From a virus (lineage: Duplodnaviria; Heunggongvirae; Uroviricota; Caudoviricetes), in the IMG/VR virus record IMGVR_UViG_2737471833_000002: 64,000 nucleotides of DNA; one strand, given 5' to 3'. Below are positions 10,261 through 12,365 of the stretch, piece after piece. The position numbers and the translations under genes were made by a program. The first letter of the stretch is position 1, and every line of letters begins with the position of its first letter. The notes beneath the pieces are model-generated. The model saw nothing but the letters and a program-made list of their open reading frames with translations. It was not told the DNA's origin and did no database searches.

Positions 10261-11328
10261 TCAAGCCTTAAGAGGCTTTGTATATGTTCGTGTAATCCAT
10301 CCAGTAATAAACTCGTCCCCTGATTTAACCTGCACGAAAAGCCATTGTCGATCTTTTTTATCTAAAATAGCAACGATTGTGTTTTTGGCAATGCATTCAA
10401 TCACTTCACTATTTACAGAAGGACTGACGTGTAATCTTACGTTCTCACCAGTTATAAAACGAAAACCATTGAGATCTTCCCAACTAATTTTTTTGTTTTC
10501 TTTAATTAATTGTTGTTTTGATATTGGTTTATCCTCAAACAGAGATATAAGGTATGATTCTGCCTCGTGTATTCCCAATAAGGTTTTCTCCTTTCCGTAA
10601 TCAATAAAGGCACCAAACACAACTTGAGAAAATATAACCATTAGTAACCATTGCAGCGGATAAGGAAGCTCTTTAAATGAATCAACAAACGTTGAATTAG
10701 ATTTATTTAATCCTTTGTTTTGGACATCACTTTTGGTGTGTGATGTTTCAGTAGCACCTTCAGCATAAGCCTGCGCAATAGATGAAAGCCCCTGCTCTAT
10801 TATTTGATGTAATGAAGCATTTCTTGTTCTAGCATAATGATCTAGTACTTTCTTTATGTCTTGGCTTACATCTATTTTATAACTTGCACTTTGTTGTAAT
10901 TCTTTAAGTATCGCTTGCATGTTATTTAAACCAGCTTGCTTATTAAGCATCTCAAGCTGGTTTCGTAATGGCATAGCTATTTCTGCCTGTTTCCTTAGCA
11001 TTTGAATATATCTATTTGCGTTATGAGGGAAAAGAGCCTGTGTCTGTTTCTGTAAAATCGCGATATGTTCACGATACTTGCTGCCTATTCCAGCCAAGTT
11101 CGGCATACTAGCCAATTGTTTTCGAAGAGCGTTACTAATTACAGCTTGTCTATTCAATCTTGTCATATTTTGAAAAGAATGTTTTTCTATTCCTAATTGT
11201 TTTTGCAAGATCGCTACGTGCTCTTTGTATGATGGAATGATTACTGACTGTTTGTACAGTAACTCCAACTCATTAGAATTAGTAATTTTTGTCATATTAT
11301 TCCATTTATATAATAGAATATTACGCAA
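10261..11328 (-). CDS. membrane-anchored protein with N-terminal helical repeats and C-terminal SH3b-like domain
   Basis: Repeated ...ILQKQ.../...LRKQ... segments, one hydrophobic helix (LQWLLMVIFSQVVFGAFIDYG), C-terminal SH3b-like pattern; AT-rich. Start uncertain (ATG at 11295 is an alternative). Confidence 0.5.
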   Translation of the reverse strand: MRNILLYKWNNMTKITNSNELELLYKQSVIIPSYKEHVAILQKQLGIEKHSFQNMTRLNRQAVISNALRKQLASMPNLAGIGSKYREHIAILQKQTQALFPHNANRYIQMLRKQAEIAMPLRNQLEMLNKQAGLNNMQAILKELQQSASYKIDVSQDIKKVLDHYARTRNASLHQIIEQGLSSIAQAYAEGATETSHTKSDVQNKGLNKSNSTFVDSFKELPYPLQWLLMVIFSQVVFGAFIDYGKEKTLLGIHEAESYLISLFEDKPISKQQLIKENKKISWEDLNGFRFITGENVRLHVSPSVNSEVIECIAKNTIVAILDKKDRQWLFVQVKSGDEFITGWITRTYTKPLKA

Positions 11329-11369
11329 CCAATGTTTTATTGATTGCGTTAATCTTTAACACAGAAAGA

Positions 11370-11846
11370 TCATTTTCCTCGTTTAATGCATCCATCCATT
11401 TTGGCTTGTTGATACAACTTACTTAGCCCAGAAAGAGGGAATGTAGCAATTTTTTCATCATCAACATAAGCATCAATCATATTAGCACTTGAATCTGCTG
11501 CATCTTGCCAAAAGGCATACCACCAAGAATCTCCAACCATTGACCCAAGATTGCTAAAAGGGTATTGCTCACCATCTATAGTTAATACTATTTTATTCTT
11601 GTCAGCATTATACTCCTTTTTATTATTCGACGAACTTAGCAACAAGCCTAAACTACCTGCACTATCTGGTGAACCATACATGAATCCCATATCACATAAA
11701 AAACTTATCTTATCACCATTATGATTATGGATTGTATATTCTCTCCCCCCTCTATCTTCAATCACATTCCATTGTAGAGGATCAATTTTTGCAAATGCTC
11801 CTGCTGAAATTAACGATACAAACAATAAAAACAATCTCATATTCAT
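11370..11846 (-). CDS. secreted protein with N-terminal signal peptide
   Basis: MNMRLFLLFVSLISAGAFA|K signal-peptide-like N-terminus; AT-rich cargo. Confidence 0.5.
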   Translation of the reverse strand: MNMRLFLLFVSLISAGAFAKIDPLQWNVIEDRGGREYTIHNHNGDKISFLCDMGFMYGSPDSAGSLGLLLSSSNNKKEYNADKNKIVLTIDGEQYPFSNLGSMVGDSWWYAFWQDAADSSANMIDAYVDDEKIATFPLSGLSKLYQQAKMDGCIKRGK

Positions 11847-11868
11847 TATTTTCGCTTCTTATCTGTAA

Positions 11869-12219
11869 TTATTCTGCAATATCATTTGCCCATTGCACGG
11901 CAGCAAAATGAGTCCCCAAGCCACTCAGGAAAGCAATTACCCCCAAAACAATACTTGCTGCTGTTGATTCAAACAAAGTACCAATACTATAGCCAATAGC
12001 TCCCCATACTAAGCTAAAAACAATCATCAATGGAATTGCCAGAAATTTTATTCTTAAACTAAAAATCAGTCCAAGAAAAGAACCGCCAAAAGCCCACCAT
12101 GATTTAGATATTAAACCTATCAGTATTGACAGAATTCCTATTTCAATAAAGAGAATATTAGATTGCTCTTCATTGAATTTCGCATTTGTTACACCTTTAC
12201 GAACATGTTCAGATGACAT
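11869..12219 (-). CDS. small multi-pass inner membrane protein
   Basis: 116 aa, three or four hydrophobic helices; strong RBS AGGAGA; first gene of the AT-rich cassette. Confidence 0.5.
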   Translation of the reverse strand: MSSEHVRKGVTNAKFNEEQSNILFIEIGILSILIGLISKSWWAFGGSFLGLIFSLRIKFLAIPLMIVFSLVWGAIGYSIGTLFESTAASIVLGVIAFLSGLGTHFAAVQWANDIAE

Positions 12220-12365
12220 GATTAACTATCTCCTGTCACAGATAAAACGCCTTAAAATAACATTTTGTAGCACAAAGTTTCACCATGCAATGGTCAATAT
12301 CTTTGATCTATATCAATTAAAGTTATGTATTTTAGTTACCTGAGAAATAATTCGCACGGTTGCAA

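What the first reader, a model, noticed from the sequence alone, without database searches (positions are those of the whole stretch)
10261..12360. AT-rich three-gene membrane/secreted cassette in the tail-operon/immunity junction: candidate superinfection-exclusion system
Three co-oriented genes encode a small multi-pass membrane protein (116 aa), a protein with a classical signal peptide (158 aa), and a 355-aa protein with N-terminal helical repeats, one transmembrane helix and a C-terminal SH3b-like domain. The region is markedly AT-rich, sits where P1 carries its superimmunity locus, and lies divergent from the c4/icd/ant promoter region. An envelope-targeted trio at this position suggests a function at the cell surface, such as blocking DNA entry or modifying the envelope.
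Basis: partly seen in the sequence, partly recalled or inferred. Interest (0 to 1): 0.65.

Follow-up and report, generated by a model that had tools for sequence, protein, structure and literature searches.

The report
Swappable envelope-protein cassette replacing P1 sim
In this P1-like phage-plasmid the slot that holds P1's superinfection-exclusion genes (simABC) instead holds three unrelated, uncharacterised envelope-protein genes that are swapped independently between relatives, so an exclusion role is plausible from position only and is untested.

Summary
Three co-oriented minus-strand genes lie in a 2.2-kb AT-rich block (about 34% GC, flanks 46-50%), exactly where P1 carries simCBA, between the pmgC late promoter and the C1 operator/c4 RNA. 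They encode a 4-TM protein (116 aa), a Sec-signal protein (158 aa) and a bitopic SH3b protein (344 aa from the conserved ATG, not 355).

None resembles SimA, SimB or SimC. The 158-aa protein belongs to the small, uncharacterised YfjT/YkfB family (Pfam PF27224), which includes E. coli K-12 prophage proteins.

Comparison of about 50 related loci shows a mosaic, not an obligate three-part system:
- The YfjT-like gene is the constant element of every non-P1 cassette type recovered at this slot.
- It pairs variously with the 116-aa protein, a full-length SimA-like secreted protein, the SH3 protein or a DUF4760 membrane protein.
- The 116-aa gene also occurs alone on chromosomes.
- The SH3 gene also occurs alone at another site in P1-like Salmonella/Citrobacter elements.
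- Recombination breakpoints fall at or near gene borders.

All three genes are under purifying selection. No known defence-system model matches, and no informative fold match was found.

Most likely this is a lysogen-expressed envelope "gatekeeper" cassette, functionally analogous to sim. That rests on position and localisation only. The slot's variability is already published. Interest is moderate to low.

The parts
10165..12365 (-). Variable, AT-rich accessory cassette occupying the sim slot (published 'variable region 4' of P1-like phage-plasmids)
   Evidence: Homology to P1 and to cassette types B, E and F stops at 10163-10172. Homology to JL22/RCS47 starts at about 12367. GC is 0.31-0.36. 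The block is 96% identical in 27 PLSDB plasmids and in 37 of 5426 complete E. coli genomes. PMC9603915 lists simCBA as a low-GC variable region.
11869..12219 (-). p116: 116-aa inner-membrane protein with four predicted TM helices and an invariant cytoplasmic N-terminal motif VRKGxTNAKFNEE. It has no Pfam, NCBIfam or PADLOC match.
   Evidence: It matches PHROG 15014, of unknown function. Homologues stand alone in chromosomal and mobile-element contexts and sit next to a YfjT-like gene in a Salmonella P1-like element. dN/dS is 0.06.
11370..11846 (-). p158: periplasmic YfjT/YkfB-family protein (PF27224). Signal peptide is residues 1-19. The conserved Cys51/Cys153 pair probably forms a disulfide.
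   Evidence: Precomputed PF27224 hit on the 96%-identical cluster representative. 29% identity and E 5e-12 to K-12 YfjT. Family alignment A2. AF2 model with pLDDT 85.7, mostly beta with two helices. Only 23 representative clusters at E<=1e-3 among 1.8 billion. dN/dS is 0.20.
11790..11846 (-). Signal-peptide coding part of p158 (MNMRLFLLFVSLISAGAFA, predicted cleavage after A19)
   Evidence: Read directly from the sequence. Every family member has an equivalent N-terminal hydrophobic leader ending in a small residue.
   Evidence: The ATG at 11295 is the conserved start. It matches PHROG 7086, of unknown function. dN/dS is 0.22.
10894..11259 (-). Degenerate helical repeat region of p344: nine h-x-[KRN]-Q-x motifs, rich in Q, L, A and K
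   Evidence: DSSP on the AF2 model is all helix, but at low confidence. In the family this region varies from about 190 to 350 residues and includes 19-aa tandem expansions. No DNA-level tandem repeat was found.
10603..10659 (-). Single TM helix of p344 (residues 224-242 in 355-aa numbering)
   Evidence: Mean Kyte-Doolittle hydropathy 1.81 over 19 residues. It is the only part of the AF2 model with pLDDT above 55. The distance from the helix to the C-terminus is fixed at 113 residues, or 109-114 in five divergent members.
10282..10443 (-). SH3b (Pfam SH3_3) domain of p344, nearly invariant across Escherichia, Citrobacter and Salmonella homologues
   Evidence: Most of the 43 invariant columns of A1 lie in or next to this domain.
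11323..11349 (-). 11-bp-stem hairpin between p158 and p344, overlapping the non-conserved TTG. It may be a weak attenuator, but no T-run follows it.
12366..12382 (+). C1-operator-like site (ATTGCTCTAATTATTTT), equivalent in position to P1 Oc4. It marks the right edge of the cassette.
   Evidence: 2 mismatches to the consensus; 11 such sites in the window against 0.43 expected. P1 Oc4 position.
12574..12661 (+). C4 antisense RNA of the divergent immI operon (context, not part of the cassette)
   Evidence: Rfam RF01695, 75.4 bits, E 4e-14.
9545..10111 (-). pmgC, the first gene of the conserved late tail operon downstream of the cassette (context)
   Evidence: 98-100% identical to P1 pmgC. The LPsit-equivalent promoter lies within the conserved 10112-10164 stretch.

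Best explanation
This is one allelic version ("type D") of the exchangeable accessory cassette in the sim slot of P1-like phage-plasmids.

Shown:
- The slot is a recombination hot spot holding at least six gene combinations.
- The window's version is a mosaic of three separately mobile genes for envelope proteins: a 4-TM inner-membrane protein, a periplasmic YfjT/YkfB-family protein, and a membrane-anchored SH3b protein.
- The YfjT-like gene is the common denominator of all non-P1 versions recovered.

Inferred:
- The SH3b domain faces the periplasm.
- The genes are expressed from the prophage-plasmid.
- They act in the envelope as a gatekeeper against incoming phage, that is, superinfection exclusion after adsorption and before DNA reaches the cytoplasm, as P1 Sim does.
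- The periplasmic YfjT-like protein is the likely effector, interfering with the tail-tip/injection apparatus.
- The 4-TM protein and the SH3b protein are interchangeable accessory or independent exclusion modules. The SH3b protein may be tethered to peptidoglycan.
- The roughly 35% identity between YfjT alleles, set in 98%-identical phage backbones, would then reflect diversifying specificity.
For: - Exact positional replacement of simCBA.
- P1 Sim is reported to prevent superinfecting phage from injecting DNA (PMC8546580, which cites Kliem & Dreiseikelmann 1989). simABC are non-essential accessory genes in P1 (PMC10695390).
- Every cassette type at the slot encodes at least one signal-peptide protein, and most products there have a signal peptide or TM helices: SimA, SimB and SimC in P1; the full-length SimA-like protein plus a YfjT-like protein in types B, C and E; p116, YfjT and SH3 here.
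- The YfjT-like gene is retained in types B to F while its partners change.
- The YfjT-like and SH3 genes overlap by 14 nt in type C. The p116/YfjT pair recurs in a Salmonella lineage where p116 is only 72% identical.
- The signal peptide and conserved Cys pair of p158 fit a periplasmic protein.
- Purifying selection acts on all three genes.
- The block is low-GC with breakpoints at or near gene borders, as expected for horizontally exchanged morons.
- One sister cassette carries a DUF4760 membrane protein instead of the SH3 protein, again a membrane product.
Against: - There is no sequence or profile similarity to SimA, SimB or SimC.
- There is no hit to any PADLOC defence model.
- No publication assigns a function to YfjT, YkfB or YpjK.
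- Each gene also occurs alone, and p116 sits in plainly chromosomal, non-phage contexts. A single joint mechanism is therefore unlikely.
- No sigma-70 consensus was found in the 146 bp upstream of p116, so expression in the lysogen is assumed, not shown.
- The topology of the SH3 protein is not settled by charge bias, and its AF2 model failed (pLDDT 38.6).
Confidence: 0.45

Rival explanations
1. The three genes are unrelated "moron" genes with no shared role and no phage-exclusion role. They could be lysogenic-conversion genes that alter envelope physiology, stress tolerance or host interaction, and they merely accumulate in a permissive, non-essential, low-GC slot.
For: - The genes are independently mobile, with breakpoints at or near gene borders.
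- The slot is one of eight published variable regions, and other such regions carry resistance or metabolic cargo (PMC9603915).
- p116 homologues lie among metabolic genes on chromosomes.
Against: - The YfjT-like gene persists at this one slot across five cassette types and three host genera.
- YfjT and SH3 overlap in type C, and the p116/YfjT pairing recurs.
- The only characterised occupant of the slot is an exclusion function.
- The fold matches are weak, and their labels are untested annotations.
Confidence: 0.3
2. This is an abortive-infection or defence module aimed at unrelated phages. The SH3b domain senses peptidoglycan damage made by an incoming tail, and the variable helical N-terminal domain (or p116) then disrupts the membrane or signals to the cytoplasm.
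For: - The architecture is a conserved TM+SH3b module fused to a rapidly diversifying N-terminal domain of 190-350 residues with repeat expansions.
- The SH3 gene works as a stand-alone gene in P1-like Salmonella/Citrobacter elements.
- A sister cassette carries a DUF4760 membrane protein at the same place.
- One p116 homologue sits next to an AAA_15/AAA_21 ATPase gene.
Against: - There is no PADLOC match and no recognisable effector or enzymatic domain.
- The only PDB sequence hits to the N-terminal region are weak matches to other helical proteins.
- The structure prediction failed.
- The sensing idea is pure inference.
Confidence: 0.12
3. This is a lysis or cell-wall accessory function. The SH3b protein would be a peptidoglycan-binding helper of the phage lysis or injection machinery, and p116 would be a holin or antiholin-like protein.
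For: - SH3b domains are common in endolysins. PHROG 1794 (amidase) gives a weak hit to the SH3 part (E 0.003).
- A D6-like Salmonella study describes a gene beside ImmI as a predicted peptidoglycan hydrolase (PMC6799933). Whether that gene is the SH3 homologue was not checked.
- p116 is a small multi-TM protein.
Against: - No catalytic domain is present in any of the 29 family members.
- Most P1-like plasmids lack the cassette: 137 carry simCBA against 27 with this type and 35 with type C. It therefore cannot be a core lysis or injection function.
- The slot is non-essential in P1.
Confidence: 0.05

Closest known systems
Phage P1 superimmunity locus simABC (SimC is the active, signal-peptide-processed protein)
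   Same: - Identical genomic slot, between the pmgC late promoter and Oc4/c4.
- The same minus-strand orientation, divergent from immI.
- Three small genes, low GC, non-essential.
- Products carry export signals.
   Different: - No detectable sequence or profile similarity between any of the three proteins and SimA, SimB or SimC.
- This cassette includes two integral membrane proteins, whereas all three Sim products are signal-peptide proteins.
- The exclusion phenotype is known only for sim.
E. coli K-12 cryptic-prophage YfjT (CP4-57, within the run ypjK-yfjS-yfjT). YkfB is named with it only in the PGAP product name 'YfjT/YkfB family phage-associated protein'.
   Same: - p158 is a bona fide homologue of YfjT: 29% identity, E 5e-12, same length, same signal peptide. 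The family is PF27224.
- In K-12 the gene also follows a small multi-TM protein gene, ypjK.
   Different: - YpjK is not similar to p116.
- The K-12 partner is a lipoprotein, YfjS (PF20494), which is absent here.
- K-12 has no SH3 protein at that locus.
- None of these K-12 genes has a known function.
Phage T4 Imm plus Sp (spackle): an inner-membrane protein and a periplasmic protein that together block superinfecting DNA entry. This comparison rests on my own knowledge of the literature.
   Same: Works-like analogy only. A small membrane protein plus a secreted periplasmic protein, encoded by the resident phage and acting at the envelope.
   Different: - There is no sequence relationship.
- Sp inhibits the tail lysozyme, and no such activity can be inferred for p158.
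Bacterial SH3b (Pfam SH3_3) cell-wall-binding domains of endolysins and NlpC/P60 hydrolases
   Same: The C-terminal 54 residues match SH3_3 in all 29 family members.
   Different: - No hydrolase domain is attached.
- The domain is tethered by a single TM helix to a long, variable, helical, probably cytoplasmic region. No library searched here carries a named match for that architecture.

Membership tests
P1 Sim superimmunity proteins | Location between the pmgC/LPsit late promoter and the Oc4/c4 immI control region, transcribed away from immI | tested here: met
   Synteny. Operator-like site. C4 RNA.
P1 Sim superimmunity proteins | Sequence homology to SimC (or to SimA or SimB) | tested here: not met
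   BLASTP p158 against SimC finds nothing. hhalign of the YfjT profile against SimC and SimB gives probability about 1%, aligning only the signal peptides. tblastn of SimA, SimB and SimC finds no hit in the window.
P1 Sim superimmunity proteins | Sec-type signal peptide, with the product exported and processed | tested here: inconclusive
   p158 has a canonical n-h-c leader with an AFA site and a conserved Cys pair. Processing and localisation cannot be shown computationally, and no SignalP-type tool was available.
P1 Sim superimmunity proteins | Exclusion of superinfecting P1 after adsorption and before DNA entry | not testable with these tools
   This requires plating, adsorption and DNA-entry assays.
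YfjT/YkfB family (Pfam PF27224) | Significant match to the family model or its founding member | tested here: met
   Precomputed PF27224 hits on P0039 (96% identical) and on the type C and E homologues. Pairwise E 5e-12 to K-12 YfjT. A profile of A2 hits K-12 YfjT at 4e-33. The local Pfam and NCBIfam copies lack the model.
YfjT/YkfB family (Pfam PF27224) | Secreted protein of about 150-170 aa with a conserved W, a Cys...Cys pair and a GD..W..FW core | tested here: met
   Alignment A2: M1, C51 and W109 are invariant; W26 and C153 are at least 90% conserved.
Bacterial SH3 domain (Pfam SH3_3, PF08239) | Score at or above the Pfam gathering threshold | tested here: inconclusive
   The window protein scores 26.3 bits against a cut-off of 27. 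All 29 homologues match at E<=0.01, best 2.3e-9, and most hits carry a precomputed PF08239 assignment. The domain is accepted at family level.
Known anti-phage defence systems (PADLOC-DB 2.0) | Match of any component to a defence-system protein model | tested here: not met
   No hit at E<=1 for the three proteins. No hit either for SimB, SimC, the SimA-like protein, the DUF4760 protein or the DUF4431 neighbour.
Obligate multi-gene system (operon whose parts co-occur) | The three genes co-occur wherever any one of them is found | tested here: not met
   p116 occurs alone. SH3 occurs alone. YfjT occurs without p116 or SH3, and p116 plus YfjT occur without SH3. HMM scans of all fetched loci confirm the absences.

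The most novel reading that the evidence does not exclude
The YfjT/YkfB family would be a previously unrecognised family of periplasmic superinfection-exclusion proteins. Its alleles (about 35% identical in near-identical P1 backbones) would set exclusion specificity. The bitopic SH3b protein and the 4-TM protein would be interchangeable partners that anchor or potentiate it at the inner membrane and peptidoglycan. This would give a first function to the K-12 y-genes yfjT and ykfB. It would also show that P1-like phage-plasmids carry a cassette system of non-homologous DNA-entry blockers at one slot.
Probability: 0.25. Interest if true: 0.6.

Novelty: new variant of a known kind. Interest (0 to 1): 0.38.

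Why it matters
P1-like phage-plasmids are common in E. coli, Shigella and Salmonella and spread resistance genes. What decides which of them can enter a cell that already carries one is largely unknown beyond P1 sim.

This slot carries at least six alternative cassettes, built around one uncharacterised periplasmic family that also sits in E. coli K-12 cryptic prophages. That gives a concrete, cheap experiment: clone the cassettes and cross-plate. The result could define exclusion groups among these elements and assign a function to long-standing y-genes.

If no exclusion is found, the region is simply another moron slot and the finding is ordinary.

Tried and rejected
- **AF2 of the SH3 protein.** A 29-sequence alignment gave pLDDT 38.6, which is unusable, so no fold search was run on it.
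- **Profile searches against PDB sequences.** Searches for all three families returned nothing, or weak matches to unrelated helical proteins.
- **Protein family libraries.** PADLOC and NCBIfam gave no hits, and PHROGs gave only unknown-function families.
- **Homology to Sim proteins.** Tested and rejected.
- **YpjK as a p116 homologue, and YfjS as a SimA-like homologue.** Both rejected.
- **D6 orf79 ("simB-like") as an SH3 relative.** Rejected on inspection: it has a SimB-like N-terminus and tblastn with p355 did not hit that locus.
- **Contexts of distant YfjT representatives.** The contigs were too short to be useful.
- **Literature.** Searches for yfjT, ykfB, ypjK/yfjS/yafY, DUF4760 and P1-like hot spots found no functional data on these genes. 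The P1 genome paper (PMC523184) is not held.
- **Promoter scan.** No sigma-70 consensus was found upstream of p116.
- **DNA-level tandem repeats in the SH3 gene.** None found.
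Full report
**1. Observation**

The window carries three co-oriented minus-strand ORFs: 11869-12219 (116 aa), 11370-11846 (158 aa) and 10261-11328 (355 aa). GC falls to 0.31-0.36 across 10200-12400, against 0.46-0.51 on both sides.

- The 116-aa product has four hydrophobic segments.
- The 158-aa product starts with a textbook Sec leader, MNMRLFLLFVSLISAGAFA|K.
- The 355-aa product has a Q/L/A/K-rich N-terminal half with nine degenerate h-x-[KRN]-Q-x motifs. It has one hydrophobic helix at residues 224-242. 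Its C-terminal SH3_3 match scores 26.3 bits, just under Pfam's 27-bit cut-off, but the match is present in all 29 family members, best E 2e-9.

One correction is needed. The TTG start is interrupted by a stop codon in several otherwise intact alleles, for example L019. PGAP also uses the downstream ATG. The gene is therefore 10261-11295, encoding 344 aa.

The ORFs are real genes. dN/dS against the nearest alleles is 0.06, 0.20 and 0.22. Each protein also has diverged homologues elsewhere.

**2. Where it sits**

The flanks are P1.
- To the left lie pmgC, tub and pmgB, 98% identical to P1.
- To the right lie a C1-operator-like site at 12366-12382, an isrK-like RNA and the C4 antisense RNA at 12574-12661, and then icd, ant and kilA.

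In P1 this interval holds simC, simB and simA.

Homology to P1 and to the other cassette types stops at 10163-10172, just upstream of the LPsit late promoter. On the right, homology to JL22 and RCS47 begins at about 12367. P1-type sequence resumes only at 12743, so the c4 immunity allele is also non-P1.

A published comparison of P1-like phage-plasmids lists simCBA as one of eight highly variable, low-GC regions (PMC9603915). P1 CRISPRi shows simABC are non-essential (PMC10695390).

**3. How common it is**

- The cassette is about 96% identical in 27 PLSDB plasmids, mostly E. coli with one Klebsiella and one Salmonella record.
- It is present in 37 of 5426 complete E. coli genomes and in several IMG/VR contigs.
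- It is absent from the deposited phage genomes searched.
- For comparison, P1-type simCBA is in 137 plasmids and a second SH3-containing type is in 35.

**4. What the proteins are**

None matches PADLOC or NCBIfam models. PHROGs gives three unknown-function families.

p158 is a member of the YfjT/YkfB family.
- The precomputed Pfam assignment is PF27224 "YfjT".
- It is 29% identical to K-12 YfjT, E 5e-12.
- The newest PGAP name is "YfjT/YkfB family phage-associated protein".
- The family is tiny: 23 representative clusters at E<=1e-3 among 1.8 billion.
- Members share a leader peptide, an invariant Cys51 and Trp109, and a nearly invariant Cys153. This fits a disulfide-bonded periplasmic protein.
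- AF2 gives a confident model (pLDDT 85.7), mostly beta with two helices.
- No paper in the library assigns a function to yfjT, ykfB, ypjK or yfjS.

p116 belongs to a small unnamed family with an invariant N-terminal motif, VRKGxTNAKFNEE.

The SH3 family is confined to P1-like contigs of Escherichia, Citrobacter and Salmonella.
- Its TM helix, linker and SH3 domain are almost invariant.
- Its N-terminal domain ranges from about 190 to 350 residues and includes 19-aa tandem expansions.
- AF2 failed on it (pLDDT 38.6).
- I infer that the SH3 domain is periplasmic. A hydrophilic N-terminal domain of 200-350 residues without a signal peptide should stay in the cytoplasm. Charge bias around the helix does not settle the matter.

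None of the three is related to SimA, SimB or SimC.

**5. Is it one system?**

tblastn and HMM censuses over about 50 fetched loci show six arrangements at this slot:

| Type | Content at the sim slot | Seen in |
|---|---|---|
| A | SimA, SimB, SimC | P1 |
| B | Full-length SimA-like secreted protein + YfjT-like | Phage Ro157c2YLVW, Cronobacter phage JK004 |
| C | SimA-like + YfjT-like + SH3, with the last two genes overlapping by 14 nt | Other E. coli P1-likes |
| D | p116 + YfjT-like + SH3 | This window |
| E | SimA-like + p116-like + YfjT-like | A Salmonella P1-like element |
| F | p116 + YfjT-like + an oppositely oriented DUF4760 membrane protein | IMG/VR contigs |

Three further points bear on this.
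- SH3 homologues of 40-46% identity stand alone at a different locus in P1-like Salmonella and Citrobacter elements.
- p116 homologues stand alone in chromosomal or other mobile contexts.
- Breakpoints between types fall at or near gene borders. Type F homology starts at 11382, right after the p158 stop. Type C homology runs from pmgC through the SH3 gene to 11242.

The trio is therefore a mosaic of separately mobile genes, not an obligate three-component machine. Two linkages do recur. The YfjT-like gene is present in every non-P1 type recovered. It pairs repeatedly with either p116 or the SH3 gene.

**6. Most likely function**

The only characterised occupant of the slot, Sim, is reported to stop superinfecting phage from delivering DNA. 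Every cassette type at the slot encodes at least one signal-peptide protein, and most products there have a signal peptide or TM helices. YfjT alleles are only about 35% identical while sitting in 98%-identical backbones, which is what an arms-race specificity determinant would look like.

I therefore favour, at about 45% confidence, a prophage-expressed envelope gatekeeper. In this model the periplasmic YfjT-like protein is the effector against the incoming injection apparatus, and p116 and the SH3b protein are interchangeable accessory or independent modules.

Shown: anatomy, position, family membership, mosaicism and purifying selection. Inferred: expression in the lysogen, periplasmic localisation, and the exclusion activity itself.

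Rivals:
- Unrelated morons with other envelope roles (about 30%).
- An abortive-infection or defence module in which the SH3 protein senses wall damage (about 12%).
- A lysis or cell-wall helper (about 5%).

**7. Comparison with known systems, and verdict**

It works like sim by position only, and perhaps like T4 Imm/Sp by architecture. It is not a member of the Sim family, because homology was tested and not met.

p158 is a member of the YfjT/YkfB family. K-12 has a loosely parallel gene run, ypjK-yfjS-yfjT, but YpjK is unrelated to p116.

The variability of the slot is already published, and the genes are already annotated as hypothetical, YfjT/YkfB-family and SH3-domain proteins. What is new here:
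- the cassette typology;
- the YfjT-like gene as the common core;
- the recognition that P1 SimA is only the N-terminal stump of a larger secreted protein.

I rate this as a new variant of a known kind, with interest about 0.38. A simple cloning and cross-plating experiment would settle the question.

Noticed in passing
L001 4913-5071 (P1 simA), compared with L003 2802-3449, L010 3928-4419 and L041 4234-4902: P1 SimA (52 aa) is the N-terminal stump of a 163-222-aa secreted protein that is intact at the same slot in other P1-like elements. After its first 9 residues, the next roughly 36 (signal peptide plus the start of the mature protein) are nearly identical. The P1 sim locus therefore looks like a product of cassette replacement that truncated an older gene.
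   Followed up: partly
L052 4029-5030; L057 3735-4628 and 3510-3680: A sister cassette has an oppositely oriented DUF4760 membrane protein (Pfam E 9e-14) in place of the SH3 gene. L057/L029 also keeps a 56-aa C-terminal fragment of the p158-type YfjT gene next to it, apparently a scar of recombination between cassette types.
   Followed up: partly
window 12367-12742: The c4/immI control region is not P1-type. blastn finds no P1 match until icd at 12743. The region resembles that of JL22, RCS47 and D6 (87-94% identity). This element probably has a different immI specificity from P1, linked to cassette types D and F.
   Followed up: partly
window 12452-12530 (+): There is an Rfam isrK (Hfq-binding sRNA, RF01394) match at 58.5 bits, above its gathering score. 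It lies immediately upstream of the C4 antisense RNA in the immI leader.
   Followed up: no
window 10118-10152: An 11-bp perfect inverted repeat (CTCGTAGAATC ... GATTCTACGAG, 13-nt spacer) lies between the cassette and the pmgC start codon. By alignment with the P1 annotation, its left arm overlaps the predicted -10 (TAGAAT) of the LPsit late promoter.
   Followed up: no
L042 439-1608; L043 2-955: In two metagenomic contigs the p116 homologue lies 12 nt downstream of a DUF4431 protein gene. In a Vibrio contig (L006) it follows an AAA_15/AAA_21 ATPase gene. In L007 it sits beside an integrase. The family therefore travels in other mobile contexts too.
   Followed up: no
P0035, P0037 and P0038 (Citrobacter homologues of the SH3 protein; alignment A1, columns 60-200): The N-terminal domain carries five to nine near-perfect 19-aa tandem repeats (SVSLSERITKLAQGSTIAD). 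Overall length in the family ranges from 325 to 481 aa, while the C-terminal 113 residues stay almost invariant.
   Followed up: partly
window, whole (for example 14049, 34676, 34687, 50511): There are eleven matches to the P1 C1-operator consensus with at most 3 mismatches, against 0.43 expected. They include an overlapping inverted pair at 34676-34703. This is consistent with a complete P1-type C1 regulon.
   Followed up: no
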